Program-made: the position numbers and the translations under genes
Shown: in pieces, positions 2,904 to 34,207 of the stretch
Position numbering within the stretch: the stretch's first letter is position 1
Layout: each line of letters opens with the position of its first letter
IMG/VR virus record: IMGVR_UViG_2921643360_000001
Coordinates: 1-64,000 of that record
From: a virus
Reading direction: 5' to 3' (one strand)
DNA: 64,000 nt
Notes under the pieces: model-generated
The model's input: the letters and a program-made list of their open reading frames with translations, nothing else
Database searches by the model: none
What the model was told of the DNA's origin: nothing

Positions 2904-3269
2904 TCATCTCCCGAATCCAGCGGACAATGCCGCCCACTCTTCCCCGGCTCGCCATCGCGTAGCTGCGGGCATTGCGAATGGGCGCACTCGCCATCCCGGC
3001 CCGCTGCGCATCCGGTAAGTTTGACGCTCAGCTTTCACTGGCTCGGGGCCATTCGGGCCTTGGCGCAACTCGCGGATAGCCTCGGCATATTCCGTCGCGC
3101 TAAAGTCATGACCGATGCGCTTCTCGCAAGCCTTCGCCGCCTCCTCCAGCGCACCCCGCCTCGCCGCCTCCATCACCTCCCCCGCCACTTCCGCCCAATC
3201 CACGATCTGACCGTTGCAATACTTGATCGCGTGATCGAAGAGGATGTCGCCTGCTTCTGCGTTGGTCAT
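2904..3269 (-). CDS. Hypothetical protein
   Basis: ATGG/4-nt overlap with 3266..3766. Protein-like composition. Confidence 0.55.
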   Translation of the reverse strand: MTNAEAGDILFDHAIKYCNGQIVDWAEVAGEVMEAARRGALEEAAKACEKRIGHDFSATEYAEAIRELRQGPNGPEPVKAERQTYRMRSGPGWRVRPFAMPAATRWRAGEEWAALSAGFGR

Positions 3270-3766
3270 GGGGTCTCCTTGGCGGGAAATGCGGTGAGAG
3301 CGATTCGCGCAACACGCCCAGCCCAGCCAGGGTCAAGCGCCATCTCCACCGGGTCTTGCTTGGCAATGTCTTCGAGTGCTTCGCGTAAAGTCCTGTTCTG
3401 CTCCACTAAATCAGCAATCAACTCGCCGTCTTCGATATCTGCATCGCTGGCGCGCGGAAGGGCTGGTTCGCCCATGTGAGTAGGTCCATTCACAGACGCC
3501 ATGAACTTGCGATTCAGTTCTTCAGCTTCAATCGCGCGCTTCTTCCACCCAAGCAACTCGCACCAATCCTCATGATCGGCATCCATGCCGGGTGCAACAC
3601 TGTTTCCGCATGATTGGCAGCGCCTAGGGGCATCAAGACCGAGAGTTCCCGCATCAAAGGCTGGCTGCGATGCACCCGCAATCGCAACCGCCAGCGCATG
3701 AACGTCCAGGCCGCCGCCGTAGTCGATGTGTTCGCGGATTAGTGCGTCTGCTTCGTCGTAGGTCAT
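3266..3766 (-). CDS. Hypothetical protein (Ea22-like flavour)
   Basis: 166 aa with the C-terminal helical segment 'LIADLVEQNRTLREALEDIAK'. Assigned mainly by position in the operon. Confidence 0.5.
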   Translation of the reverse strand: MTYDEADALIREHIDYGGGLDVHALAVAIAGASQPAFDAGTLGLDAPRRCQSCGNSVAPGMDADHEDWCELLGWKKRAIEAEELNRKFMASVNGPTHMGEPALPRASDADIEDGELIADLVEQNRTLREALEDIAKQDPVEMALDPGWAGRVARIALTAFPAKETP

Positions 3767-3805: not shown

Positions 3806-4639
3806 TTACTTGCTGAGTTGGATCATCGGCATTGCGCTGCCCATCATGTACTGAGGGTAGTGCCCGTCCCATTTGGCGATCTTCTGTTGCTCGATCAGCG
3901 CGGGGTTTGCCTCAAGCGATTTGCCCGTCAGCTCATTGGCCTTGGCGTTGTTCTCAGCAACCTTCAGCGCTGCCTCAGACTCAACGACGCGCTTTTGCGC
4001 TTCCCACTTCGTCTGGGCAATTTCGTTCTCGACGCGCAATGCGTTCTGCTGGGCGGTGATCTTCGCCTCAATGGCGTCGTTGAACTGCTTGCTAAACTGG
4101 AAGTCAACGATGTTCACCGCCGACACATTCACGCCGATATTCTTGAACCGAGTCAGCAACGCCTCGCGGATCTCCTGACTAACCTGGTCCCGCTTCTGAA
4201 TCAGGTCAGTAGCTTCGTATCGGGCCACGATAGCCTTCACGATGTCATGCACTGCCGGGTCCATGACTTGCGCCCACGGATCGCCGCCGAGATTGGCATA
4301 AACGCCGACTGCCGCAGTCGGAAGAATATTGAAGTTGACGGCGACCTTCATGTCGGCCTGTTGCAGGTCTTTTGAAGAACCCGCGATATCCGATTGCGCC
4401 TTGTACACGCCGATGTAGACCGTGTGCATCGACTGCGAAATCGGCATACGGAAGTGGATGCCGGGCTCGTACACCGTGGCGGATGGAGCGCCGAACGTGG
4501 TCATCACGCCGACGTAGCCCGCTGGCACGGATGCGAACGGCCAGAGGATGAAAAGCGCGATGAGCAATACAACTGCGCCGATAGCGCCGAGGATCAGCTT
4601 GATGCCGCCTCGCGGGACTTCTCTGGATGCAACAGCCAT
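3806..4639 (-). CDS. SPFH / band-7 (prohibitin-like) membrane protein
   Basis: Start moved to the internal ATG at 4639, preceded by SD AAGGAAAA. An N-terminal TM helix (LILGAIGAVVLLIALFILW) is followed by the 'VPAGYVGVMTTFG' SPFH core and a coiled-coil tail. Confidence 0.8.
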   Translation of the reverse strand: MAVASREVPRGGIKLILGAIGAVVLLIALFILWPFASVPAGYVGVMTTFGAPSATVYEPGIHFRMPISQSMHTVYIGVYKAQSDIAGSSKDLQQADMKVAVNFNILPTAAVGVYANLGGDPWAQVMDPAVHDIVKAIVARYEATDLIQKRDQVSQEIREALLTRFKNIGVNVSAVNIVDFQFSKQFNDAIEAKITAQQNALRVENEIAQTKWEAQKRVVESEAALKVAENNAKANELTGKSLEANPALIEQQKIAKWDGHYPQYMMGSAMPMIQLSK

Positions 4640-4795: not shown

Positions 4796-5227
4796 TCAGA
4801 ACGGCACATCGTCCGCCATGTCCTCGAAACCACCACCAGCCGGCGCACGTTGCGGCGCTGGACGCTGCTGCGGCTTCGGTGCTGGCGCGGGCGCTTGCTG
4901 CTGCGGCTGACCACCTCCCGCCAGGTCAATTGCAGTGATCCGACCGGCGAGCTTCACGCCTTCGGTGCCGTCCGCTTTCTTGAATGTCTCGATGTGTGTG
5001 TCTTCCAGCGCGACGGTAACAAGCGCGCCTTTCGTGAAGTACGGGGCCAACGCCTCTGCGCGCTTACCCCACAAAGCACCGTCGACCCACTGAACCGGCT
5101 TCTTTCCGTCGTCGCCCTTGCGCCCATAACTGAACGCCAGTGAGACGCTCGCGACGGCATCGCCGCCCGTTGTGTTGCGCACTTCAACATCTCGACCGAT
5201 GCGGGCCAATCCGAAAATTTGAATCAT
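4796..5227 (-). CDS. ssb: Single-stranded DNA-binding protein
   Basis: OB-fold-like N-terminus, a G/P/Q-rich linker and the acidic tail 'FEDMADDVPF'. Confidence 0.9.
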   Translation of the reverse strand: MIQIFGLARIGRDVEVRNTTGGDAVASVSLAFSYGRKGDDGKKPVQWVDGALWGKRAEALAPYFTKGALVTVALEDTHIETFKKADGTEGVKLAGRITAIDLAGGGQPQQQAPAPAPKPQQRPAPQRAPAGGGFEDMADDVPF

Positions 5228-5250: not shown

Positions 5251-5904
5251 TCAGGCGGCCATCGCCGCAATTTGTTTGTGGGTTGCGTCGACTTCGAACA
5301 GAAACTGACGCAACGCCACTTCGTACTCTTTGATCAGCGCTTCATCACGCTCCCATCGGAAGACGAACAGTTGCAGCTTCTCCGGCATGTCGGGATCGAA
5401 GCTCACAAAGTCGACGAACTCCGCGCCGGTCACCAGCGTGTTGTGCAGTACCTGATTCATGTACGTCGGCGGGATGCGTTTCTCAATCAGATACTTGAAG
5501 TGCGTTTTGGTCTTCGGGCACTTGCCCTCCCACAGACCAAGGCGACCGCCATCGACCAGAAGTCCATCCGGGCTGCAGCCCGCCATCATGTCTTCGCGGT
5601 AGACGAACCCGCATTGCTCGACCGCGATGCCGGTTTGGATCTCGTATCGCATCCTGGCGAATGGCTCTCGGTCATGCCCGCGCTCAGTGTCTGCGCTCGA
5701 AAACTCATCCGCGCACGATTTGCACAGCAATCGCTCAAGAGCCAGTTGCACGCGGTAATCGGCCCGCGTCGCCGCCTCTCCAGAACCGGACCTTGCCTTG
5801 GCGGTGACTGCTGCTGCGTTTGAGCCCGTAACACGTCCGGCGCGGTCAGCCATCCATTCTGGTGTGTTTTGCGGATGCTCCGAGACGATGAAATTCCGCT
5901 TCAT
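5251..5904 (-). CDS. YqaJ-like viral recombinase exonuclease
   Basis: Start set at the internal ATG 5904 (ATGA overlap with the upstream stop). Motifs 'TPEWMADRAGRVTGS', 'GCSPDG' and 'WEGKCP' fit the YqaJ/lambda-Exo fold. Confidence 0.8.
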   Translation of the reverse strand: MKRNFIVSEHPQNTPEWMADRAGRVTGSNAAAVTAKARSGSGEAATRADYRVQLALERLLCKSCADEFSSADTERGHDREPFARMRYEIQTGIAVEQCGFVYREDMMAGCSPDGLLVDGGRLGLWEGKCPKTKTHFKYLIEKRIPPTYMNQVLHNTLVTGAEFVDFVSFDPDMPEKLQLFVFRWERDEALIKEYEVALRQFLFEVDATHKQIAAMAA

Positions 5905-6713
5905 TGCGCACTCCCTCCGATTTCGCCCTTCTTCTTGTCGGCCAAAACCTTGAACTGGTTCCAGCTTGCGACGTCGCCAATCGCCTCGAACGCTGCGCCA
6001 GCCATTGCGCGAATGCGACGAATGTCGTCGGCGGTGGCTGCGGACGTCAACTGGGTTTCCCACTTCATCCAAGTTTCGTCGGCGCTAGGCTTGCCATCAG
6101 ACCCATGGCCGTCGTCGTCGGCCTGATCCTTGGTGGCTAAGCCAACAGCAGCCAGCAGCGAATAGCGCTCCAGGTAGGTCACGGTCGACGACATCGCCTG
6201 GATGCTGTTCTTCCCTCCAGACTGGTCAAGGCCGGCCTCAAGCGTCGTTTCTTCGCTATGGCCCAGCTTGTGTTTGATGACGCACGTGATGGACATCATT
6301 CCGCCTTCGGTGCGACGCGGAATCCAGCGATGACTGAATCCATAGGTCGCTAGCGACGCAACCACCTTTTCCACTACGTTGCCGATGGTGGCGTGGTCGT
6401 ACGCGGTGACCCCGCTGTTCGTCTTGAACTCGACGTGCTTGTCCTTGAGGATCGTCGGCGGGTTCAGCTTGAACTCAGCCATTGATGCGTCAAACGCCTT
6501 CCTCGCCTCGCGGTCTTCCCACTGCATTTGCATCTGCATGAGCCGTTCAAGACGATCAAGGTCGGCACCACTTTCAAGCGCATATCGCACAAGGTCTGCC
6601 GGCGTGGCGGATGCCGCGGTGACAGCGCGCGTCTGTTGAACTGCCGGTGGCTTTGCTGCGATCGGTTCGGCCATCTCAACATCTGTAATGTCTGCCATGG
6701 TTGCGGTTTGCAT
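5901..6713 (-). CDS. ERF-family single-strand annealing protein
   Basis: 'AYDHATIGNVVEKVVASLATYGFS' and 'QAMSSTVTYLERYSLLAAVGLA' resemble the ERF signature. It is paired with the YqaJ exonuclease and SSB. Confidence 0.7.
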   Translation of the reverse strand: MQTATMADITDVEMAEPIAAKPPAVQQTRAVTAASATPADLVRYALESGADLDRLERLMQMQMQWEDREARKAFDASMAEFKLNPPTILKDKHVEFKTNSGVTAYDHATIGNVVEKVVASLATYGFSHRWIPRRTEGGMMSITCVIKHKLGHSEETTLEAGLDQSGGKNSIQAMSSTVTYLERYSLLAAVGLATKDQADDDGHGSDGKPSADETWMKWETQLTSAATADDIRRIRAMAGAAFEAIGDVASWNQFKVLADKKKGEIGGSAQ

Positions 6714-12127: not shown

Positions 12128-12910
12128 TCAGGTGCTGCGATACATGCCGGATCCGCGCGGCACGATGGCGCCTACACGATGGATAGACACGATATCGGCC
12201 AGCGACCTCGTGATTGGAGGAATGCCATTGTTGATCGAACCAAGGCTGACTTCCTCATCACGGATCCACAACAATTCTTTGACGACAGCGCTGCCGTCGA
12301 CAAACTTGACCACCACATCATCACCCGGAAGAGCTTCGACGCCGGGTTCCACAACGATGTGTTCGCCACTCTTTATGCGCGGCCTCATGCTATCGCCGCG
12401 CACCTTCAAACCATAGGCCGTTGGGTCTGGTGAATGGATGTTGAGCCATCCATGGCCGTGACCTGGCGGATAGTCGTCGATACTGATAAACCCATCCGGC
12501 CCACCCTGCACTTCCCCGACCACGGCTATATCCCTCCCAGCCTTTAGTTCCAATCGCTCGCCAACGTTTGCTTCTGCTCGTGGCAGGCCTTCGATACTAG
12601 CCCCACCTTTCGGGACCGAAGGCGCAATCATGCCTGACTTTTGCCGGTTCTTCGAGATATCAGTGTCCGCTGAAATGTGGTTGCCGGTGACGCCCAAATC
12701 GAAGTAGAGAGTCGGCAAGCCAAGTTCGGACTCGAGTCGCCGCGCAGCTCCTTCGCCGAACCCGCGTCCCTCCCGATAGTTCGGGTTCAGCAGTTGTCGG
12801 ATCCGAGCCGCATCCTGGTTGTGCAGTCGAGCGAATTCAGCGGCGACCCCTCCCGCCTCCCTGTCCACTAGTTCCTGTAGCCGCTTACGGCGGTGCGCAT
12901 GTATGTCCAT
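12128..12910 (-). CDS. CI-like repressor with LexA/S24 peptidase C-terminal domain
   Basis: Start at ATG 12910 (MDIHAHRRK). The C-terminus 'GLKVRGDSMRPRIKSGEHIVVEP...VVKEL' is the S24 Ser/Lys autocleavage fold. Transcribed divergently from the cro-like gene. Confidence 0.85.
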   Translation of the reverse strand: MDIHAHRRKRLQELVDREAGGVAAEFARLHNQDAARIRQLLNPNYREGRGFGEGAARRLESELGLPTLYFDLGVTGNHISADTDISKNRQKSGMIAPSVPKGGASIEGLPRAEANVGERLELKAGRDIAVVGEVQGGPDGFISIDDYPPGHGHGWLNIHSPDPTAYGLKVRGDSMRPRIKSGEHIVVEPGVEALPGDDVVVKFVDGSAVVKELLWIRDEEVSLGSINNGIPPITRSLADIVSIHRVGAIVPRGSGMYRST

Positions 12911-12932
12911 GGCGGAATTAGAACCGAAAACT

Positions 12933-13002
12933 AGCATTTGCTGTGAAAGCAGAATTTATCATTTCAGCACGCAAATGCTTGCGTTTAGCGGAAGCATTTG
13001 CT
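12933..13002. promoter_or_regulatory. OR operators: three copies of AGCATTTGCT / its complement
   Basis: Sites at 12933..12942, 12970..12979 (complement, 9/10) and 12993..13002, in the 103-bp divergent intergenic region. Confidence 0.7.
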
Positions 13003-14710: not shown

Positions 14711-15556
14711 TTGATTACTGAATTGCAACTGCATCCGCTCTGCACTCTCTTCCCGAGAATTGTCGGTGCGGAATTTGAGGCGTTGAAGGCGGACATCGTC
14801 GCCAATGGCCTGCGTCAGCCGATTGTGGTCCACGACGGCATGATCCTGGACGGCGGCAATCGCTATCGTGCCTGTATCGAGGCTGGAATCGAACCGTCTA
14901 CGGTTGAATTTGATGGCGGCAATCTGGTGTCGTTCGTCCTGTCGGCCAATCTGCATCGCCGCCACCTGTCAGAAGGCCAGCATGCCGCAATCGTCGCGAG
15001 CGCCCAGCAATGGGAGTCCGCGCAATCGCAAGGGAGACCGAAGAAAACCGGTAACGTTACCGGATTATCGACAGTGGCAGAGAGACGGGCGGTATCTGGC
15101 GCAAGCGATAAGACGCAGCGCATGGCGGACAAGGTGGCGAGAGAGTCACCGGAACTCGCAAAGAAAGTCGCGCAAGGCGAAGTCAGCCTTCCTAAAGCAA
15201 TCAAGCAGCTCGCGCCTGCAAAGGCCGCCCCAGTAGCGGAACCTGAGCCCGAACAGGTCGAGGCCGCAGAGGAGGAGTTTGGCCCTAGCGCGGAAGAGAT
15301 CGCATTTCTTGAGGCGACCGAACAGGCCGACAGAGACGCCTATAACAACCTTGTCGAGATCGCAGCGGCTGACGACAAACTCGCCGAGGCGCTTGCACTG
15401 GTCGTCACGCAAACCCATGAGATCGCACGACTCAGGGCGCTTGTTCGTGTCGTAGAAGAGTCGCGCGACGGCAAGATGATGACGATCAACGAGCAGATCC
15501 GCACGATCAAATCATTGCAGCGAAAACTCGAAAAATTCGAAAGGACTGCGGCATGA
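14711..15556 (+). CDS. ParB/Srx N-terminal (ParB-like nuclease) domain protein
   Basis: TTG start. 'LRQPIVVHDGMILDGGNRYRACIEAG' is the ParB-N core. Confidence 0.75.
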   Translation: MITELQLHPLCTLFPRIVGAEFEALKADIVANGLRQPIVVHDGMILDGGNRYRACIEAGIEPSTVEFDGGNLVSFVLSANLHRRHLSEGQHAAIVASAQQWESAQSQGRPKKTGNVTGLSTVAERRAVSGASDKTQRMADKVARESPELAKKVAQGEVSLPKAIKQLAPAKAAPVAEPEPEQVEAAEEEFGPSAEEIAFLEATEQADRDAYNNLVEIAAADDKLAEALALVVTQTHEIARLRALVRVVEESRDGKMMTINEQIRTIKSLQRKLEKFERTAA

Positions 15557-17085
15557 ATCACGTTCTCTTTGAAGATCGGCCCAACTACGAGACTGTTAGC
15601 TTCCCTAAGCCGCGACCGTTCCAGACTTCGGCGCACGACCGGCTTCGCGAAGGACGGCGCGCAGGACACAAGAATCAACTCGTGATGGCTCCGACTGGCG
15701 CCGGCAAATCTTATCTTGGTCTCCGCATCGCTCATGAAGCATTGGCGAAGGGGCGCAAGGCGATTTTCGTTTGCGACCGCGAGGCGTTGATCGACCAGAC
15801 TAGCGAGGTCGCAGACAAATATGGCCTAAGCGCGCATGGAGTCATCAAGGCGAATCACTGGCGCGTAAATCGCGATATGCCATTCCAGATCGCGAGCGCG
15901 CAGACGTTGGCTCGTCGCGGATGGCCCGAAGATATGGACGTGATCATCATCGATGAAGCGCACACCCAGTACACGGTATGGCGAGATTACATCCCGAACT
16001 GCCGCGCGTCCGTCATTGGATTGTCTGCAACTCCGTTTTCAGATGGTCTAGGAAAGCTTTTTAGCAATCTGATCAATGCCACGACTATGCACGACCTCAC
16101 CGAATCCGGCGTGCTTGTGCCGATGCGCGTGTTCTCGTGCAAGAAAACCAATATGGACGGCGCTGCAACTCGCGGTGGCGAGTGGACCGATTCCGCCGCC
16201 GAGGAGCGCGGCATGGAAATCGTCGGTGATGTGGTGGCCGAATGGATGAAGCTTGGCGAAGGCCGCAAGACAATCGTCTTTGGTTCCACGATCAAGCATT
16301 GCGAGGAATTGTGCCGGGAATTCAATGCCGCTGGCGTGATGGCCGCCGTGTTCACATCTGAAACGCCGCCCGAACAGCGCAAGCCGCTCCTTGAGGAATA
16401 CCGAAAGCGTAACTCAGTGTTGCGCGTGCTGATTAGCGTTGAGGCTCTGGCGAAGGGATTTGATGTGCAGGATGTTGGCTGCGTTGTCGACTGTCGGCCT
16501 CTCCGCAAGTCTCTAAGCACGGCAATCCAAATGTGGGGAAGAGGCCTGCGTTCGTCGCCGGAAACTGGTAAGCAAGATTGCCTGCTTCTTGATCATAGCG
16601 GGAACATCACCCGGTTTTTGGATGACTACACCGACATTTTCTATAACGGCCTCGACGCGTTGGATGCTGGTGAAAAGCTGGATAAGGCGGTGCGCAAGGA
16701 GCCTGAAGAGAAGGAGGTGGTCGCCTGCCCTTCATGCGGCTATAAGCCTTTCGGACGGCGCTGCATGTCGTGCGGATTCGAGCCGAAATCTTCAGCCCTT
16801 GTGGAGGCCGTACCCGGTGAAATGCAGGAGGTCGTTATAGGAAAAAGGAAATTGGCCGACGACAAACGGCACCTATATGCGCAGATCTGCACATATGCGC
16901 GCTCCCATAGTGACCCAGACAAGCAGCGTGGGCGGGCGGCGCACCTTTATCGAAAAATCATGGGCGATTGGCCGCCACGTGACTTCGTGTTCGAGAAGAC
17001 GGAGAACGTCACCATCGAGCGCAACACACTGAACAAGATCAAATCAACCAACATTGCTGCGGCAAAGGCGCGCTCAAATGGCTGA
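15553..17085 (+). CDS. SF2 DEAD/DEAH-box DNA helicase
   Basis: Motif I 'APTGAGKS', motif II 'IIIDEAHT' and a C-terminal Zn-ribbon 'CPSCGYKPFGRRCMSCG'. Confidence 0.85.
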   Translation: MNHVLFEDRPNYETVSFPKPRPFQTSAHDRLREGRRAGHKNQLVMAPTGAGKSYLGLRIAHEALAKGRKAIFVCDREALIDQTSEVADKYGLSAHGVIKANHWRVNRDMPFQIASAQTLARRGWPEDMDVIIIDEAHTQYTVWRDYIPNCRASVIGLSATPFSDGLGKLFSNLINATTMHDLTESGVLVPMRVFSCKKTNMDGAATRGGEWTDSAAEERGMEIVGDVVAEWMKLGEGRKTIVFGSTIKHCEELCREFNAAGVMAAVFTSETPPEQRKPLLEEYRKRNSVLRVLISVEALAKGFDVQDVGCVVDCRPLRKSLSTAIQMWGRGLRSSPETGKQDCLLLDHSGNITRFLDDYTDIFYNGLDALDAGEKLDKAVRKEPEEKEVVACPSCGYKPFGRRCMSCGFEPKSSALVEAVPGEMQEVVIGKRKLADDKRHLYAQICTYARSHSDPDKQRGRAAHLYRKIMGDWPPRDFVFEKTENVTIERNTLNKIKSTNIAAAKARSNG

Positions 17086-29469: not shown

Positions 29470-30648
29470 ATGCCTATCGCGCGCCAGTACGACGAACGGT
29501 TAAAAGAGTTTGCCGACAGCCGCGAGGCCGAATTCCTCAGTGCTGTGCTGGAGCATGGTTCGCCCAATGCGGCGGCCAAAGCGCTCGGGAAGCATCACAG
29601 CACCGTCATTCGGGCGCTGGACAGTTTAGAAGCGCGCGCCGCACGCATGGGTTATGCGCCGGCCTACGACATGACGCGTCCATGCCCGCCGGGGTTCCGG
29701 TCGCGCGGCACGTCGACACTCGTCAAGGCTGACGGCTCCATTGCCATGCAATGGGTGAAGACGGAAGCCGACAAGTCACAAGACGAAGCGATTCTCCGCG
29801 AGTTTGCCCAATCGCTGGCGGATGGCGTGAAGGGCTTGGCACCGATTACGCCCGCGCCGGCGCACGTTGTTTCCGATCTGCTGTGTGTCTATCCTCAAGG
29901 TGACCCACACGTCGGTTTGCATAGCTGGTGGGCTGAAGCCGGAGAAGACTTCGACCTGAAGATTGCCGAACGCCTGATGTGCGCCGCGGTTGATCGACTC
30001 GTCGCAACCGCGCCAGCAGCCGAAACCGCCCTGCTCCTAAATTTAGGAGATATGTTCCATGCTGACAATCAGAAGAACGAAAGCCAGTCGGGACATAAAT
30101 TAGACGTCGACGGACGCTGGGCAAAGGTTCAGCAGGTAGGATTGCGCGCGATGCTGCACTGTGTGCGCCGCCTGCTTGAAAAGCATAAGCGCGTGATTCT
30201 CCGCATCAACCGCGGCAATCACGACGGCCATTCGTCGTATGCGTTGGCGCTGATGATCTCGTGCTACTTCCACAATGAGCCGCGCGTGGAGGTCGACTTG
30301 TCACCCGCCGTCTGCTGGTATCACCAGTTCGGCGGCAACCTGATTGGATCGACGCACGGCGACACGATCAAAGGCCCGAATCTGCTGCCCGTCATGGCAG
30401 CGGACGTCCCCGAGATGTGGGGCGCAACAAAGCATCGCATGTGGTTCGTGGGTCACGTCCACCATCAGGACATCAAGGAATACCCGGGCGGCACGGTGGA
30501 GTACTTCCGCACGCTGGCCGCTCGTGATGCGTGGCACGCCGGGCAGGGATACCGCGCCGGACGCGACATGCGCCTGATTGTGCTGCACCGTGAGCACGGC
30601 GAGATCGAGCGGCACCGCGCAGACATTGGAATGCTGGAGGCGGCATGA
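29470..30648 (+). CDS. LysR-type-HTH-like N-terminus fused to a calcineurin-like metallophosphoesterase
   Basis: 'SAVLEHGSPNAAAKALGKHHSTVIRALDSLE', then 'GDPHVG', 'LGDMFHADN', 'RGNHDGH' and 'GHVHH'. Confidence 0.6.
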   Translation: MPIARQYDERLKEFADSREAEFLSAVLEHGSPNAAAKALGKHHSTVIRALDSLEARAARMGYAPAYDMTRPCPPGFRSRGTSTLVKADGSIAMQWVKTEADKSQDEAILREFAQSLADGVKGLAPITPAPAHVVSDLLCVYPQGDPHVGLHSWWAEAGEDFDLKIAERLMCAAVDRLVATAPAAETALLLNLGDMFHADNQKNESQSGHKLDVDGRWAKVQQVGLRAMLHCVRRLLEKHKRVILRINRGNHDGHSSYALALMISCYFHNEPRVEVDLSPAVCWYHQFGGNLIGSTHGDTIKGPNLLPVMAADVPEMWGATKHRMWFVGHVHHQDIKEYPGGTVEYFRTLAARDAWHAGQGYRAGRDMRLIVLHREHGEIERHRADIGMLEAA

Positions 30649-30959
30649 AAGCGATGACCAGCGGCGAGAAGGTCGCCCAGCTTGAGGCGCGCATTGCAGA
30701 GTTGGAGCGCTTGGTTGGCATTCTGACGCGTGAGCGCGATTCGAAGCCGCCTGCGGTGTACGGACCGCTCGACAGGACGCCAACACTTCCGGGCTGGCCG
30801 ATGGACCCAAAGCCGTTCGAGCCGGTATTCCCGCTGCCGGGAGCCATGCCAACGTGCGGTAAGTGCGGCATTACGCTGTCGCCGGTCATGGGCTATTGCT
30901 GCTCTCGCACTGATTGCCCGTGCGGGCTTGGCGGCGTCACTTGCACGACGACGGCATGA
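30645..30959 (+). CDS. Coiled-coil / Cys-rich small protein
   Basis: 104 aa. 'VAQLEARIAELERLV' is followed by a C-terminal CGKCG..CC..C.C cluster. Confidence 0.5.
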   Translation: MKAMTSGEKVAQLEARIAELERLVGILTRERDSKPPAVYGPLDRTPTLPGWPMDPKPFEPVFPLPGAMPTCGKCGITLSPVMGYCCSRTDCPCGLGGVTCTTTA

Positions 30960-31029
30960 TCACCCCCAACACTCTTTTCCTCGCCTACACCATATTTGTT
31001 GCGTGTTGTGTGATTGTGGCGGGGAGAGG

Positions 31030-31368
31030 TTAAACGCTTCCGGAGCGGCGCACCTTCACATTGATCGTGCGCTTTCCTGATGCGTCGACTGACGTGCTGG
31101 GCCGATCGAACTTTGCCGTGCGAGGGCGCTCCTGATTCAGCGTCTCCGCAGCTTGCGCCAGCGACTCCAGCGCGAACTGTTCCGGGTAAGTCATCTCGAC
31201 GTCAGTAGTCTTGCCGTCGACCTCGCGCGAGCCGGCTATCAGGTAACGCAACCGGCGCTCGCTGATACCGATCGTGGTTGCAATCCAGAACTGAGATTTG
31301 CCGATGCGCTCGACCAGCTTGCGAACGGTTTCGGCGCGCGGGTCGTGGTTGTCTGAGTTAGGTGTCAT
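31030..31368 (-). CDS. XRE-like HTH protein (third gene of the reverse operon)
   Basis: 'SQFWIATTIGISERRLRYLIAG' HTH. ATGA overlap with the upstream peptide gene. Confidence 0.6.
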   Translation of the reverse strand: MTPNSDNHDPRAETVRKLVERIGKSQFWIATTIGISERRLRYLIAGSREVDGKTTDVEMTYPEQFALESLAQAAETLNQERPRTAKFDRPSTSVDASGKRTINVKVRRSGSV

Positions 31369-31505
31369 AGCTTGCGGTAGATGATTGCTTCGGGATACGA
31401 GTTACGCAGGCAGCGCAAAGCGCTTTCTACGTCTCGCGGTTTGTTTGAATCGACGGTAATGGTGCAAACCAATTTGCCGTTGAGGAAGGCGCCGTAGGTG
31501 ACCAT
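31365..31505 (-). CDS. 46-aa peptide
   Basis: My translation is MVTYGAFLNGKLVCTITVDSNKPRDVESALRCLRNSYPEAIIYRKL. It fills the gap and is translationally coupled. Confidence 0.4.
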   Translation of the reverse strand: MVTYGAFLNGKLVCTITVDSNKPRDVESALRCLRNSYPEAIIYRKL

Positions 31506-31513
31506 GGCTCGCC

Positions 31514-31813
31514 TCAAAGAACGATGCTGGAGATTTCTGCTGCGCGCTTCGCGGCGGCGATCGCCTTATCTGCTGCGTGGGCTGCGGCACGTTGTGCATC
31601 GGCGATGAGTTCTTTTGCCTCGGCAACGGTGATCTTCTCGACGCCGTTGTGCGGGACAAACTTGTAGATCTGTGTGCCAGCCTTGTTGACGAGGATGTAT
31701 GCGTCGGGTGCAAAGTCGCCGGGAGTGGCGATTGCAGCCTTTACGGTGAGGCTCAGGAAGCCAACCTTAACGGTTGCGCCGATGGACCAATCTTGCTTGC
31801 TCTTCGTGATCAT
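31514..31813 (-). CDS. 99-aa hypothetical protein (first gene of the reverse operon)
   Basis: Internal ATG 31813 preceded by GGAGAAACGAA. Reads MITKSKQDWSIGATVKVGF... Confidence 0.55.
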   Translation of the reverse strand: MITKSKQDWSIGATVKVGFLSLTVKAAIATPGDFAPDAYILVNKAGTQIYKFVPHNGVEKITVAEAKELIADAQRAAAHAADKAIAAAKRAAEISSIVL

Positions 31814-31860
31814 TTCGTTTCTCCGGGTTCGCCTTCCACGTTGTGTGGCGGCATGTGTGA

Positions 31861-31889
31861 ATCTTAGGTGAGGCACACTGTGCCGTCAA
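31861..31889 (-). promoter_or_regulatory. Sigma70-like promoter (TTGACG-17-TAAGAT) with palindromic operator GGCACAGTGTGCC in the spacer
   Basis: Read directly from the minus strand. Extra half-sites are TGTGCC at 31907 and GGCACA at 31933. Confidence 0.6.
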
Positions 31890-31991
31890 GCGTTATTTAG
31901 GATATTTGTGCCTCAGAATAACGAGCGGATACGGCACACATCGGCAAACACCCTGATTTTCCGGAAACTCCCCCATGAATGAGGTGCAGGT

Positions 31992-32648
31992 ATGGCCCTT
32001 TGCGGAGCCAAAAACCGCAGCGGTCAGCCTTGCAAACGCCACGCAACGGTAGGAGCCAAGCGCTGCAAGTTGCACGGCGGCAACAACAAGCCGGCGAAGA
32101 AGGGTAACGCGTACGCATCCAAGCCTGGTTCGCTCTACAGCAAGTACCTAACCGACGACGAGCGCGCTATTGCCGCGTCGCTTGAACTCGGCGGCGTCGA
32201 CGAAGAGTTGCGCCTTACCCGCATCCGCCTGATGCGCGCCCTGCAGCGTGAGGCCGACAAGGGCGACACACCGGAGCTTGACGAGCAGGTTGAGCGCGAA
32301 GGCGCCGAGAACGTCACGGCCAAGAGCGAGACCAAGTACAAGGTTCGCGACTACGTGACGATGATCGACCGGCTGACGGCTCGCGTCGAGTCCCTGGAGG
32401 CGCGTCGTGCTGTCCTGCTCCAGCAGCAGACGGACATCGAACTGAAGCGCAATGCTGATCGCCGCGCCGAAGAGATGCACGACATCGAGGCGCAGGTTAA
32501 GCGTCTTGATATCCAGCGCAAACAGAAAGAAGCCGCGCTGACGAATGTCGAGATCACGAACAACATCATGCCGGTTCCGACCGCTGACAGCGTCGATAGC
32601 TGGGAGCAGGTTGCATCGGCGCAGCAAGACAAGTCGCTGGGGCGGTAA
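31992..32648 (+). CDS. terS: Terminase small subunit (putative)
   Basis: Basic N-terminus 'GAKNRSGQPCKRHATVGAKRCKLHGG' and a coiled-coil C-terminus. Its stop overlaps the terL ATG. Confidence 0.55.
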   Translation: MALCGAKNRSGQPCKRHATVGAKRCKLHGGNNKPAKKGNAYASKPGSLYSKYLTDDERAIAASLELGGVDEELRLTRIRLMRALQREADKGDTPELDEQVEREGAENVTAKSETKYKVRDYVTMIDRLTARVESLEARRAVLLQQQTDIELKRNADRRAEEMHDIEAQVKRLDIQRKQKEAALTNVEITNNIMPVPTADSVDSWEQVASAQQDKSLGR

Positions 32649-34207
32649 TGGCCTACAACGTCGTTTGGAAGCCGCTCCCTGGCTCGCAATCGCTGGCGCT
32701 GTCGTGTCCGTGCAATGAGATCCTGTACGAAGGGACTCGTGGGCCTGGCAAGACGGCTGCTCAGCTTGCCCGATTCCGTCGCAACGTTGGCCGCGGTTAC
32801 GGCTCGTTCTGGCGCGGAATCATCTTCGACATCGAGTATAAGAACCTCGCCGACATCATCACGCAGAGCAAGCGGATGTTTCGCCTGTTCAACGATGGCG
32901 CTCGGTTTCTGTCGTCTGCATCCGAACTGAAGTGGGTTTGGCCCACTGGCGAGGAACTGCTGTTCCGGTTCGCGAAGGACGAGGACAAGTATTGGGACTA
33001 TCACGGGCAGGAATTCCCGTTCATCGGCTTTAACGAGCTGACGAAGCAGACGAGTAGCGCCTTTTACGAGGCGATCATGTCGTGCTTGCGGTCGTCTTTT
33101 AGGCCGCAGGACTATCCGCGCCCAGATGGCTCGCTGTTGCCGAATATCCCGCTTGAGATGTTCAGCACGAGCAACCCGTTTGGCGTCGGACATGCGTGGG
33201 TGAAGAAGCGTTTCATCGAACCAGTGCCGCGCGGTCGCGTTCTGCGTACGAAGCAGGTTGTGTTCAACCCGCAGACGAAGCAGGACGAGGAAATTACCCT
33301 CACTCGCGTGGCGATTCACGGCAGTTACAAGGAAAACCCGTTCCTTGACCCGGTGTACGTCGCGACGCTGATGAATATCCGCGATCCGAACAGGCGCAAG
33401 GCTTGGGTAGAAGGATCGTGGGATGTGACGAGCGGCGGACGGTTCGACCATCTCTGGCGCGAATCGACGCACGTCATCAAGCCGTTTCAGATTCCGGCAT
33501 CGTGGCACGTCGATCGTTCGCACGACTGGGGCGAATCGAAGCCATTTGCCAATCTCTGGTGGGCGGAATCAGATGGTTCGGCTGTCGCGATAAACGGTCG
33601 GCATCGCGTATTCCCCAAGGGGACGCTGTTCCTGATCGGCGAATGGTACGGTTGCCCTCCCGGTGAGTTGAATACTGGCCTGAATATGTCGTCTACGGAC
33701 GTCGCAAAGGGCGTCAGGTGGATCGATGCACGTCTGGCTGGTCAAACTGCGGAGATGCCGGCGAGCTTGAATCAAGGCCAGGTCAATATCATGCCCGGCC
33801 TGTGCTCGAAGGTGGCGCCCGGCCCTGCCGATTCGTCAATCTTCAACACTGGCGACCATGAGTTGTCTATCGCCGAGAAGATGAGAAAGCAGGGCGTGTC
33901 GTGGCGCGAGTCTGACAAGCGTCCTGGCAGCCGCAAAAACGGCGCATCGCTCTTCTGCGACATGCTCGAAGCGGCGCTCAACGGGCAAGTATCCGAATCC
34001 GGCCAGCCGGAGGAGCCCGCTTTCTACGTTTTTGAGCATTGCCGCGGATGGATCAGCCGAATCCCGATTCTGCCGCGCGACTCGAAAGACCCTGACGACG
34101 TCGATACCAGCGCCGAAGACCACGATTGGGACGCGACGCGTTATCGAGTCCTAGTCAAGCGCGGTACTGCATCGCATCAGGCAAGCGTCCCCCACATGCA
34201 CAGGTGA
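32648..34207 (+). CDS. terL: Terminase large subunit
   Basis: Walker A 'EGTRGPGKT'. 519 aa, located upstream of the portal. Confidence 0.85.
   Translation: MAYNVVWKPLPGSQSLALSCPCNEILYEGTRGPGKTAAQLARFRRNVGRGYGSFWRGIIFDIEYKNLADIITQSKRMFRLFNDGARFLSSASELKWVWPTGEELLFRFAKDEDKYWDYHGQEFPFIGFNELTKQTSSAFYEAIMSCLRSSFRPQDYPRPDGSLLPNIPLEMFSTSNPFGVGHAWVKKRFIEPVPRGRVLRTKQVVFNPQTKQDEEITLTRVAIHGSYKENPFLDPVYVATLMNIRDPNRRKAWVEGSWDVTSGGRFDHLWRESTHVIKPFQIPASWHVDRSHDWGESKPFANLWWAESDGSAVAINGRHRVFPKGTLFLIGEWYGCPPGELNTGLNMSSTDVAKGVRWIDARLAGQTAEMPASLNQGQVNIMPGLCSKVAPGPADSSIFNTGDHELSIAEKMRKQGVSWRESDKRPGSRKNGASLFCDMLEAALNGQVSESGQPEEPAFYVFEHCRGWISRIPILPRDSKDPDDVDTSAEDHDWDATRYRVLVKRGTASHQASVPHMHR

What the first reader, a model, noticed from the sequence alone, without database searches (positions are those of the whole stretch)
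31030..31889. Autonomous, operator-controlled three-gene reverse operon wedged in front of the terminase genes
Seen: the minus-strand promoter TTGACG-17-TAAGAT has the perfect palindrome GGCACAGTGTGCC filling its spacer. Further half-sites lie upstream (TGTGCC at 31907, GGCACA at 31933). It drives a 99-aa ORF (SD GGAGAAA), a coupled 46-aa ORF and a coupled 112-aa XRE-like HTH protein. All are opposite in orientation to the surrounding late genes.

Established: promoter-embedded palindromes are typical of autoregulated toxin-antitoxin, restriction-controller and defence modules. Reverse-oriented morons in late operons are usually lysogen-expressed.

Inference: this is a candidate three-component TA or abortive-infection-like system, or an immunity or exclusion module. 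Neither the 99-aa nor the 46-aa product resembles anything I recognise.
Basis: partly seen in the sequence, partly recalled or inferred. Interest (0 to 1): 0.5.

Follow-up and report, generated by a model that had tools for sequence, protein, structure and literature searches.

The report
Aca1-controlled anti-defence-type operon in a prophage
The reverse three-gene unit in front of the terminase genes is an anti-CRISPR-type ("acr-aca1") operon: a known autorepressor, Aca1, sits behind two small uncharacterised proteins that are candidates for switching off bacterial immunity, so it is a counter-defence unit rather than a toxin-antitoxin or defence module.

Summary
The promoter TTGACG-17-TAAGAT, the spacer palindrome GGCACAGTGTGCC, the upstream half-sites and three coupled minus-strand ORFs (99, 46 and 112 aa) are all present.

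The 112-aa protein is a homologue of Aca1, the anti-CRISPR-associated repressor of Pseudomonas phage JBD30. A profile of its family hits Aca1 in the PDB at E=5e-10, identity is 39%, and Aca1 chains are the only strong fold matches. The palindrome has the same core as the experimentally defined Aca1 operators, with half-site GGCAC. The 5'UTR carries the published Aca1 RNA stem-loop of the Burkholderiaceae cluster.

Related loci keep the promoter, operator, UTR and aca1 gene but swap the cargo: A alone, A+B, X118+A, Y50+A, or 48-aa+B. The 99-aa protein A also sits upstream of Aca10-like, other HTH and ribbon-helix-helix-like regulators. In three lambdoid prophages examined it is the first or second gene behind the CI operators, which makes it immediate-early there.

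A, B and C each occur without the others, which argues against a toxin-antitoxin system. A has an SH3/Tudor-like barrel plus a long helix and belongs to 322 clusters at 50% identity. A and B match no known family, so their role as anti-defence proteins is inferred and not shown.

This is a new member of a known kind.

The parts
31884..31889 (-). -35 hexamer TTGACG of the operon promoter
   Evidence: Read and found by the scanner. TTGAC(N), or TTGC(N) in two loci, lies at the same position in 8 related loci.
31861..31866 (-). -10 hexamer TAAGAT, with a 17-nt spacer
   Evidence: Related loci have TA(N)(N)AT variants at the same spacing.
31872..31884 (.). Aca1-type operator, palindrome GGCACAgTGTGCC inside the promoter spacer
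   Evidence: It is the only copy in the window. The JBD30 Aca1 operators have the same core: IR1 AAGCGGCACACTGTGCCTATT and IR2 ATTAGGCACAATGTGCCTAAT, with half-site GGCAC (PMC8633003). It is conserved in L003, L043, L049, L050, L051, L054, L058 and L060, all of which encode a C/Aca1 homologue.
31907..31938 (.). Upstream outward-facing half-sites, TGTGCC-N20-GGCACA when read on either strand, lying between the operon promoter and terS
   Evidence: The same spacing is kept in L043, L049 and L050. This is not a canonical IR1 palindrome and its role is unresolved. Published work finds an extra upstream Aca1 DNA motif in about 40% of aca1 operons (PMC13551039).
31831..31852 (-). 5'UTR RNA stem-loop GCC-g-CCAC-acaac-GTGG-aa-GGC, the Aca1 RNA motif
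   Evidence: It is the MFE and centroid structure of the leader. In a 9-locus alignment, 100% of cells pair and 2 of the 7 pairs show compensatory changes (C-G to U-A, A-U to G-C). It fits the published description: three conserved lower pairs, up to 2 unpaired bases, a covarying upper stem, a start directly after the TSS and an end about 20 nt before the start codon, with a Burkholderiaceae cluster (PMC13551039).
31810..31854 (-). 14-codon upstream ORF MPPHNVEGEPGETK, starting at the predicted transcription start; its TGA overlaps the ATG of A
   Evidence: Read. The ATG is conserved in 9 loci, but its frame relative to the cargo gene varies. It is probably a by-product of the RNA motif. It is included as a feature and is not claimed to be a gene.
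31514..31813 (-). Gene A (99 aa): cargo gene 1, candidate anti-defence or immediate-early protein; SH3/Tudor-like barrel (residues 14-61) plus a long C-terminal helix (63-98)
31365..31505 (-). Gene B (46 aa): cargo gene 2, a small conserved protein of unknown function
   Evidence: It has 6 homologue clusters at 74-93% identity and is under purifying selection. It follows A in L052 as well. With the same promoter it follows a 48-aa protein and precedes aca1 in L054. It has no PDB or Pfam match.
31030..31368 (-). Gene C (112 aa): aca1 homologue, the HTH autorepressor, with a 30-aa C-terminal tail
   Evidence: A profile of the C family hits Aca1 of phage JBD30 (7c0g, 7fa3) at E=5e-10 over the full length. 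Identity is 39%. The AF2 model's only PDB hits below E=1e-3 are Aca1 chains, with target-normalised TM 0.77-0.81. Equivalents of the DNA-contact residues R22, S42, R44, R47 and Y48 are invariant or nearly so. It also matches phrog_3865.

Best explanation
This is an acr-aca1-type operon, that is, an Aca1-regulated counter-defence operon carried by a lambdoid prophage of Paraburkholderia steynii.

A constitutive sigma70 promoter at 31889-31861 on the minus strand would transcribe A, B and C as one message; no transcription was measured here. C is an Aca1-family HTH protein. Once it has accumulated, it binds as a dimer to the GGCACAgTGTGCC palindrome in the promoter spacer and shuts the promoter down. 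It probably also binds the conserved stem-loop at the 5' end of the mRNA.

The result would be a short burst of A and B when the DNA enters a cell that holds no C, or on induction, followed by low steady-state expression.

A and B are interchangeable cargo. The most likely role for them is as immediate-early proteins that neutralise a host defence system, either an anti-CRISPR or another anti-defence function.

Shown by homology and comparison: the identity of C, the operator, the RNA motif and the cargo-swapping architecture. Inferred: actual binding and repression, the expression kinetics and the anti-defence function of A and B.
For: Identity of C:
- A profile of the C family hits JBD30 Aca1 at E=5e-10 over the full length.
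- Identity is 39% by BLASTP.
- Foldseek gives Aca1 chains as the top six hits and the only ones below E=1e-3. Antitoxins and R-M controller proteins score E>=0.1.
- Equivalents of the base and backbone contacts R22, S42, R44, R47 and Y48 are conserved.

Operator:
- The core is identical to the crystallised and ITC-tested Aca1 sites (PMC8633003).
- It lies in the promoter spacer in 9 non-identical loci.

RNA motif:
- The leader hairpin is 100% paired across 9 loci, with 2 compensatory pairs.
- It matches the published Aca1 5'UTR motif, which includes a Burkholderiaceae cluster.

Cargo swapping behind the same promoter, operator and UTR, and in front of aca1:
- A alone in L003, L043, L050, L051 and L058.
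- A+B in the window.
- X118+A in L049, Y50+A in L060, and 48-aa+B in L054.

A with other regulators:
- A precedes an Aca10 homologue (7xi5, E=2.5e-10) whose spacer palindrome CACTCAtTGAGTG shares the CTCATTGAG core of the proven Aca10 site.
- A also precedes three XRE-type proteins, two other HTH proteins (the Albius 59-aa type among them) and three ribbon-helix-helix-like types. In all, 34 of 99 non-identical loci have such a regulator, of 10 sequence types.

Immediate-early position:
- In lambdoid prophages the CI operator palindromes of the cro-cI region are repeated 40-90 bp upstream of A in L044 and L045.
- In L052 they lie upstream of a 50-aa gene followed by A and B.
Against: - A is unusually conserved for an Acr. 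The listed homologues are roughly 60-85% identical across Burkholderiales, and about 50-55% identical in Planctomycetota and Acidobacteriota. That suits a protein binding a conserved host component better than a protein in a fast arms race.
- The published work reports that Aca proteins also control genes other than acr genes.
- The JBD30 contact residue R59 is not conserved in C, and loop 3-4 is 4 residues longer.
- There is no canonical second IR upstream, only split half-sites.
- No expression or binding data exist for this locus.
Confidence: 0.75

Rival explanations
1. It is a toxin-antitoxin or abortive-infection module. A, or A with B, would be a toxin. C would be a HigA/MqsA-like HTH antitoxin that both neutralises the toxin and autoregulates the promoter.
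For: The gene order, with a small protein first and an HTH protein last, and the operator inside the promoter resemble reverse-order type II systems such as HigBA. Aca1 is structurally close to HigA2 and MqsA (PMC8633003; MqsA, HigA and HipB appear as weak Foldseek hits). One automatic JGI label on a C homologue reads 'antidote protein VapI'. Toxins pairing with varied DNA-binding antitoxin families is a known pattern, and A pairs with many regulator types.
Against: The partners are not obligate. In 65 of 99 A loci no regulator from the panel was found nearby, and A can be the first gene of a CI-controlled early operon. C occurs with other cargo and without A (L054). B occurs without C. Most partner regulators are 52-67 aa and have no room for a neutralising domain. 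There is no toxin fold or family hit for A or B. C's specific relatives are Aca1 proteins and not antitoxins.
Confidence: 0.07
2. A is a phage developmental regulator and not an anti-defence protein. For example, it could be an N-like or Psu-like factor that acts on RNA polymerase, NusG/NusE or Rho. It would be expressed first from the early-left promoter, or from its own Aca-controlled promoter beside the late genes.
Confidence: 0.1
3. It is a lysogenic-conversion or superinfection-exclusion moron. The operon would be expressed at low level from the prophage, and A and B would protect the lysogen against other phages or change host physiology.
For: It has an autonomous sigma70 promoter, lies opposite to the late genes and sits at a classic moron site between the nin region and the packaging genes. 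Negative autoregulation gives constant low expression in lysogens.
Against: In other prophages A and B lie behind CI operators, which predicts repression in the lysogen. A homologues with a different HTH protein are present at the same site in the cultured Ralstonia phages Albius, Raharianne and Hyacinthe. There are no membrane or signal sequences and no PADLOC hits.
Confidence: 0.08

Closest known systems
acrIF1-aca1 operon of Pseudomonas phage JBD30 (Aca1; PDB 7C0G, 7FA3, 7VJM)
   Same: The 3'-terminal gene is homologous (39% identity, E=5e-10). The operator core GGCACAnTGTGCC overlaps the promoter in the same way. A single conserved stem-loop starts the 5'UTR. Small cargo genes lie upstream of aca1. 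The promoter is autonomous and sits beside virion genes.
   Different: The cargo (A, B) is unrelated to any solved Acr. In place of a palindromic IR1 there are outward-facing half-sites 20 nt apart. C has a longer loop 3-4, lacks the R59 equivalent and carries a 30-aa C-terminal tail. The host is Paraburkholderia, and the operon lies in front of terS in the reverse orientation.
Burkholderiaceae cluster of acr-aca1 5'UTR RNA motifs (NAR 2026, PMC13551039)
   Same: The layout of promoter DNA motif, transcription start and stem-loop is the same, with a covarying upper stem. The predicted host family is the same. That paper also notes that many Aca-controlled genes are unannotated anti-defence candidates.
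   Different: The published cluster holds only 6 motifs. I could not check whether this locus or protein A is among them, because no supplementary files are held.
acrIC7-acrIC6-aca10 operon of Pseudomonas citronellolis (Aca10; PDB 7XI5)
   Same: In L086 and L090, protein A lies upstream of an Aca10 homologue (E=2.5e-10). A 13-nt spacer palindrome there shares the CTCATTGAG core of the proven Aca10 site.
   Different: This concerns relatives of A and not the window itself. The cargo differs from AcrIC6 and AcrIC7 as far as can be told.
Phage P22 immI region (Pant-arc-ant with Arc and Mnt operators)
   Same: It works alike. A strong autonomous promoter among late genes has its spacer occupied by the operator of a small repressor encoded in the same transcript. 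This gives a burst followed by shut-off. In L045, A is even preceded by Arc-like genes.
   Different: There is no sequence relationship. The repressor is encoded last and not first, it is HTH and not RHH, and the cargo is not an antirepressor as far as is known.
Reverse-order type II toxin-antitoxin systems (HigBA, MqsRA)
   Same: A small protein is followed by an XRE-type HTH autoregulator that binds a promoter palindrome. Aca1 is structurally similar to HigA2 and MqsA.
   Different: The partners are not obligate, there is no toxin family or fold, and the nearest relatives of C are Aca1 proteins.
PipX (cyanobacterial PII/NtcA-binding Tudor-like protein)
   Different: Identity is 11% and rmsd 5.7 A. 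There is no sequence-profile link, PipX has two C-terminal helices and a different biology. This is a fold resemblance only.

Membership tests
acr-aca1 operon (Aca1-regulated anti-CRISPR/anti-defence operon) | The last gene encodes an Aca1-family HTH protein | tested here: met
   A profile of the C family hits Aca1 in the PDB at E=5e-10 over the full length. BLASTP gives 39% identity over 70 residues. Foldseek's top 6 hits are Aca1 chains (TM 0.77-0.81), and nothing else scores below E=1e-3.
acr-aca1 operon (Aca1-regulated anti-CRISPR/anti-defence operon) | DNA-contact residues of Aca1 are conserved (R22, S31/Q32, S42, R44, R47, Y48, R59 in JBD30) | tested here: inconclusive
   R16, S25/Q26, S36, R38, R41 and Y42 of C align with R22, S31/Q32, S42, R44, R47 and Y48, and are invariant or nearly so in 26 homologues (residue roles from PMC8633003). 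R59 aligns with V56, and loop 3-4 carries a 4-residue insertion. Six of the seven positions are therefore kept.
acr-aca1 operon (Aca1-regulated anti-CRISPR/anti-defence operon) | An inverted repeat with GGCAC half-sites (GGCACAnTGTGCC) overlaps the operon promoter | tested here: met
   31872-31884 lies in the -35/-10 spacer. The core is the same as JBD30 IR1 and IR2. It is conserved in 8 other loci that encode C homologues.
acr-aca1 operon (Aca1-regulated anti-CRISPR/anti-defence operon) | A conserved single stem-loop RNA motif lies at the start of the 5'UTR | tested here: met
   The hairpin at 31852-31831 is the MFE structure. It is 100% paired across 9 loci with 2 compensatory pairs. It fits the published description.
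acr-aca1 operon (Aca1-regulated anti-CRISPR/anti-defence operon) | Small, variable, interchangeable cargo genes lie upstream of aca | tested here: met
   Five cargo combinations sit behind the same promoter, operator and UTR.
acr-aca1 operon (Aca1-regulated anti-CRISPR/anti-defence operon) | At least one cargo gene is a recognisable or proven anti-CRISPR | tested here: not met
acr-aca1 operon (Aca1-regulated anti-CRISPR/anti-defence operon) | Aca binds the operator and represses the promoter | not testable with these tools
   This needs EMSA or ITC and reporter assays.
Type II toxin-antitoxin system (HigBA/MqsRA-like) | The toxin gene co-occurs obligately with its cognate antitoxin gene | tested here: not met
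   A lacks a nearby regulator from the panel in 65 of 99 loci and is the first gene behind CI operators in L044 and L045. C occurs without A in L054. B occurs without C in L052 and L053.
Type II toxin-antitoxin system (HigBA/MqsRA-like) | A recognisable toxin family or fold | tested here: not met
Known anti-phage defence or abortive-infection systems (PADLOC-DB) | At least one protein matches a defence-system model | tested here: not met
   There are no hits for A, B or C at E<=1.
Restriction-modification controller (C-protein) unit | An HTH C-protein lies next to R and M genes and has C-box operators | tested here: not met
   The neighbours are an exonuclease-like gene, a 104-aa ORF and terS/terL. 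C-proteins appear only as weak Foldseek hits at E>=0.2.
PipX family (for protein A) | Sequence membership, in addition to a Tudor-like domain and C-terminal helices | tested here: not met

The most novel reading that the evidence does not exclude
Protein A would found a large, previously unnamed family of phage immediate-early counter-defence or host-takeover proteins. The family has 322 clusters at 50% identity and spans Beta- and Gammaproteobacteria, Planctomycetota and Acidobacteriota. Its fold is a PipX-like Tudor/SH3 barrel plus a long helix. A is placed either first behind the prophage repressor's operators or under at least ten different Aca-type autorepressors. Its unusual conservation suggests that it blocks a conserved host component, such as a widespread defence system or the transcription or RNA machinery, rather than one CRISPR subtype. 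The 46-aa protein B would be a second, independent small effector that travels with it.
Probability: 0.45. Interest if true: 0.6.

Novelty: new member of a known kind. Interest (0 to 1): 0.4.

Why it matters
The regulatory unit is textbook acr-aca biology: the Aca1 protein, its operator and its RNA motif are all published, and a Burkholderiaceae cluster has been described. On that count the finding is explained and ordinary.

Its value is as a pointer. Genes upstream of aca genes have repeatedly turned out to be anti-CRISPR or other anti-defence proteins. Here the cargo is a very widespread, highly conserved and entirely uncharacterised small protein (A), together with a 46-aa companion (B). 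A is linked to at least ten regulator types and to the first position of CI-controlled early operons, which makes it a well-supported candidate for functional screening.

Cultured Ralstonia phages (Albius, Raharianne, Hyacinthe) carry a homologue of A, so the test is practical.

Tried and rejected
- Toxin-antitoxin or abortive-infection reading: rejected because the genes are not obligate partners and no toxin or defence model matches.
- B as a chance ORF in a 145-bp insertion between A and C: one search shows the insertion, and none of the first 51 loci has it. Rejected after finding 6 homologue clusters and a synonymous-dominated substitution pattern.
- B and the 63-65-aa proteins at the same position in L083 and L090 as homologues: hhalign gives no support (probability 0.4%).
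- Known-family searches that returned nothing: Pfam, NCBIfam, PADLOC and PHROGs for A and B; PDB by sequence for A, B, X118 and the 65-aa protein; BFVD fold search for A, which returned only an uncharacterised homologue; Rfam for 30000-33000. The Aca1 RNA motif is evidently not in Rfam 15.
- P0195, a 1288-aa protein with 8 apparent repeats of the A domain: judged a low-complexity repeat artefact of a eukaryote-like protein.
- The afdb50 fold library was unavailable.
- Literature and supplement searches for A-specific peptide strings found nothing. The supplements of the 2026 NAR paper are not held.
- The 57-aa RHH-like regulator has no PDB match, so its relation to the published RHH regulator Aca14 is untested.
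- My simple next-ORF picker over-called long spurious ORFs in GC-rich DNA. I replaced it with tblastn of a regulator panel. The figure of 65 loci with no regulator found is therefore an upper bound.
Full report
**1. Observation**

- The promoter is TTGACG (31889-31884), a 17-nt spacer, then TAAGAT (31866-31861).
- The palindrome GGCACAgTGTGCC (31872-31884) fills most of the spacer and shares its first G with the -35 hexamer.
- Two further half-sites lie at 31907-31912 and 31933-31938.
- Three tightly packed ORFs follow:
  - A is 99 aa (31813-31514) and is preceded by GGAG.
  - B is 46 aa (31505-31365). It starts 8 nt after the stop of A, with GAGG upstream.
  - C is 112 aa (31368-31030). Its ATG overlaps the TGA of B.

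The consensus scanner finds this promoter and no other in 30900-32050. The palindrome is unique in the 64-kb window.

The neighbours on the + strand are a phrog_704 exonuclease-like gene with an N-terminal HTH (29470-30648), a 104-aa ORF, terS (31992-32648) and terL (32648-34207).

The window is a lambdoid prophage of Paraburkholderia steynii. A is identical to BZM27_05985 and C to BZM27_05980. The prophage has an integrase at 481-1554, an Erf-like gene at 5901-6713, a CI/S24-type repressor at 12128-12937 and a helicase at 15553-17085.

**2. What protein C is**

Pfam, NCBIfam and PADLOC are silent for C, and PHROGs gives only phrog_3865, of unknown function.

A database search found 35 homologues. 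Most are 80-85 aa, that is, the HTH core without the 30-aa tail of the window protein.

- A profile of 26 of these homologues hits Aca1, the anti-CRISPR-associated protein of Pseudomonas phage JBD30, in the PDB at E=5e-10 over the whole length.
- C itself is 39% identical to Aca1 over 70 residues.
- The AlphaFold model of C has pLDDT of about 95 over residues 10-75.
- That model finds Aca1 chains as its six best PDB matches, with TM 0.77-0.81 normalised to the target. These are the only matches below E=1e-3. Antitoxins (MqsA, HigA, HipB) and R-M controller proteins follow at E>=0.1.

**3. The operator and the leader are the published Aca1 elements**

The crystallographic and ITC study of Aca1 gives the JBD30 operators as IR1 AAGCGGCACACTGTGCCTATT and IR2 ATTAGGCACAATGTGCCTAAT. 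The half-site is GGCAC, read by R44, R47 and Y48 (PMC8633003).

The window palindrome GGCACAGTGTGCC has the same core. In the C family the equivalent residues R38, R41 and Y42 are invariant. So is S36 (the equivalent of S42), and R16 (the equivalent of R22) is nearly invariant. R59 has no equivalent in C.

A 2026 paper (PMC13551039) describes the conserved upstream architecture of acr-aca1 operons:

- a DNA motif in the promoter;
- a second upstream DNA motif in about 40% of operons;
- a single RNA stem-loop of about 20 nt directly after the transcription start, ending about 20 nt before the start codon;
- within the stem-loop, three conserved lower pairs, up to two unpaired bases and a covarying upper stem.

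That paper sorts the motifs into three clusters, one of them specific to Burkholderiaceae.

I had noticed such a hairpin independently. In the window it is GCC-g-CCAC-acaac-GTGG-aa-GGC at 31852-31831, and it is the MFE and centroid fold of the leader. In an alignment of nine non-identical loci, all 61 cells pair and two pairs change on both sides: CCAC/GTGG against CUGC/GCAG. The two variants probably represent few independent events, so this is consistent with the published motif rather than independent proof of it.

**4. The cassette is modular**

Eight other non-identical loci encode a C homologue: L003, L043, L049, L050, L051, L054, L058 and L060. All carry the same -35, palindrome, -10, leader and Shine-Dalgarno region. 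Their cargo differs:

| Cargo | Loci |
|---|---|
| A alone | L003, L043, L050, L051, L058 |
| A + B | the window |
| 118-aa protein (X118) + A | L049 |
| 50-aa protein (Y50) + A | L060 |
| 48-aa protein + B, with a 67-aa gene after aca1 | L054 |

Where the adjacent DNA is available, the cassette lies divergent from terS. The terminase types differ between loci (Terminase_2, DUF2280, phrog_1889). The phrog_704 gene is usually on the other side.

B arrived in the window as a 145-bp insertion between A and C. It is nevertheless a real gene: it has six homologue clusters and clear purifying selection.

**5. Protein A elsewhere**

A belongs to a large family. There are 282 hits in the 90%-clustered database, the 120 listed being roughly 60-85% identical. 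There are 322 clusters at 50% identity, many of which consist of the roughly 60-aa barrel alone.

The family occurs in Burkholderia, Paraburkholderia, Ralstonia, Cupriavidus, Variovorax, Massilia, Stenotrophomonas and Methylococcaceae, and also in Isosphaeraceae and Bryobacterales. It is present in 58 IMG/VR contigs. Among cultured phages it is found only in the Ralstonia phages Albius, Raharianne and Hyacinthe.

Two contexts recur across 99 non-identical loci.

(i) A is followed, often with an ATGA overlap, by a small DNA-binding protein. This holds for 34 of the 99 loci, and the regulators fall into ten sequence types:

- Aca1-like, in 8 loci.
- Aca10-like, in 2 loci. This type hits 7xi5 at E=2.5e-10. 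Its promoter spacer holds CACTCAtTGAGTG, which shares the CTCATTGAG core of the proven Aca10 site ATACGCTCATTGAGCGTAT.
- Three XRE types.
- Two other HTH types.
- Three ribbon-helix-helix-like types, for example ...SRPVRMTDEEWAKCKRLGGAAWVRAKI.
- In phage Albius, a 59-aa HTH protein follows A. The promoter there, TTGCTA-17-TATGAT, carries the inverted repeat TGCTATT...AATAGCA.

(ii) In lambdoid prophages A has no regulator of its own and lies just behind copies of the CI operators.

- In L044, the palindromes at 3388-3436 between cro and cI recur at 4910-4958, which is 43-91 bp before A.
- In L045, the palindromes at 3144-3194 recur at 4908-4961.
- In L052, the palindromes at 3017-3060 recur at 4314-4402, ahead of a 50-aa gene, then A, then B.

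In those three prophages A, and B in L052, are therefore predicted to be immediate-early genes that are repressed in the lysogen. About twenty further loci have an S24-type repressor 1.2-1.8 kb upstream of A in the same orientation.

**6. Structure of A**

The AlphaFold model (pLDDT 84) has a five-stranded SH3/Tudor-like barrel (residues 14-61) and one long helix (63-98).

This describes a fold and does not assign a function.

**7. Mechanism**

The best-supported reading is an acr-aca1-type operon.

- An unrepressed promoter fires when the DNA enters a cell that lacks C.
- A and B are made first.
- C accumulates, binds the spacer palindrome and probably the leader RNA, and shuts expression down to a low level.

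The following are established by homology, by comparison with experimentally defined elements and by nine-fold conservation: the identity of C, the operator, the RNA motif and the cargo-swapping architecture. The following are inferred: actual binding, the expression kinetics and the function of the cargo.

The anti-defence role of A and B rests on association only. A lies upstream of two validated Aca families and eight other small regulator types, and it occupies an immediate-early position in CI-controlled operons. Against that, A is far more conserved than typical anti-CRISPR proteins. The published work also stresses that Aca proteins control other kinds of genes.

**8. Rival explanations**

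- A toxin-antitoxin or abortive-infection module is unlikely. None of the three genes needs the others, and most partner regulators are too small to carry a neutralising domain.
- An N-like or RNAP-directed developmental regulator is conceivable from the position and fold of A. It fits poorly with A being dispensable cargo.
- A lysogen-expressed exclusion moron is contradicted by the CI-operator contexts.

**9. Novelty**

The regulatory unit is already known, including a Burkholderiaceae cluster of such operons. This locus is a new member of that kind.

What is new is the cargo: the large uncharacterised family A and the small protein B. I rate overall interest as moderate (0.4), because the explanation is largely ordinary while the locus supplies a specific and well-supported candidate for anti-defence screening.

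Noticed in passing
window 31810-31854 (minus strand): A 14-codon upstream ORF, MPPHNVEGEPGETK, starts exactly at the predicted transcription start, 7 nt after the -10 hexamer. It ends in an ATGA overlap with the start of gene A. The ATG is conserved in all nine Aca1-type promoters, but its frame relative to the cargo gene varies, and some gene callers fuse it to A (P0030, P0037). It is probably a by-product of the RNA motif. Leaderless translation has not been tested.
   Followed up: partly
window 31907-31938; L043, L049, L050 upstream regions: The two upstream half-sites face outwards (TGTGCC-N20-GGCACA) and do not form a palindrome. They keep this spacing in four loci. One Aca1 dimer cannot span them. 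They could be a titration site, a control element for the divergent terS operon, or a hairpin. This remains unexplained.
   Followed up: partly
window 31030-31125 (C residues 82-112); P0145, P0147, P0148: The window Aca1 homologue has a 30-aa basic C-terminal tail of low model confidence, shared only with three close relatives. Homologues of the B. pseudomallei type instead carry an extra C-terminal domain of about 80 aa. Most family members stop right after the HTH core.
   Followed up: no
P0280, P0223, P0003, L052 4606-4992, L090 5001-5354: The A domain occurs in fusions. In P0280 a domain like the 50-aa cargo protein of L060 precedes the A barrel. In P0223 a 270-aa coiled-coil region precedes it. 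Several A homologues carry a conserved C-terminal extension, ...FVGMVEDGGETFAVYRTSTI.
   Followed up: no
L083 5328-5525, L090 5371-5562: In loci with XRE67-type or Aca10-like regulators, a 63-65-aa protein (MATYTYTVLYQGAEIA...) lies between A and the regulator, which is the position B holds in the window. It has no detectable homology to B.
   Followed up: partly
L002, L063, L064, L069, L071, L092, L098, L006, L007, L009, L011, L019, L020: Many A homologues are followed, with an ATGA overlap, by 52-75-aa proteins that have a basic N-terminal arm and a ribbon-helix-helix-like core (...VRMTDEEWAKCKRLGGAAWVRAKI, or ...LPPWAVAALRLLGGGS...). They may be relatives of the recently described RHH regulator Aca14. 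I could not compare them because I did not have its sequence.
   Followed up: no
window 29470-30648 (+): A 392-aa phrog_704 'DNA repair exonuclease' with an N-terminal HTH (weak hit to HTH_1) is the conserved neighbour on the aca1 side of the cassette in L043, L049, L050, L054 and L060. Its role, whether a late regulator or a nuclease, is unknown.
   Followed up: no
L054 4521-4703 (minus) and 3829-4524 (minus): In L054 the cassette is flanked upstream by a divergent 60-aa XRE HTH gene and a 231-aa HNH-like protein lying between it and terS. This locus therefore has a second small regulator facing the Aca1-controlled promoter.
   Followed up: no
L052 3894-4253, L053 4212-4571: A 119-aa lipoprotein (Pfam Sap1) lies directly after the CI repressor gene and before the OL-like operators. 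This is the position expected for a lysogen-expressed exclusion gene, and it contrasts with A and B, which lie beyond the operators.
   Followed up: no
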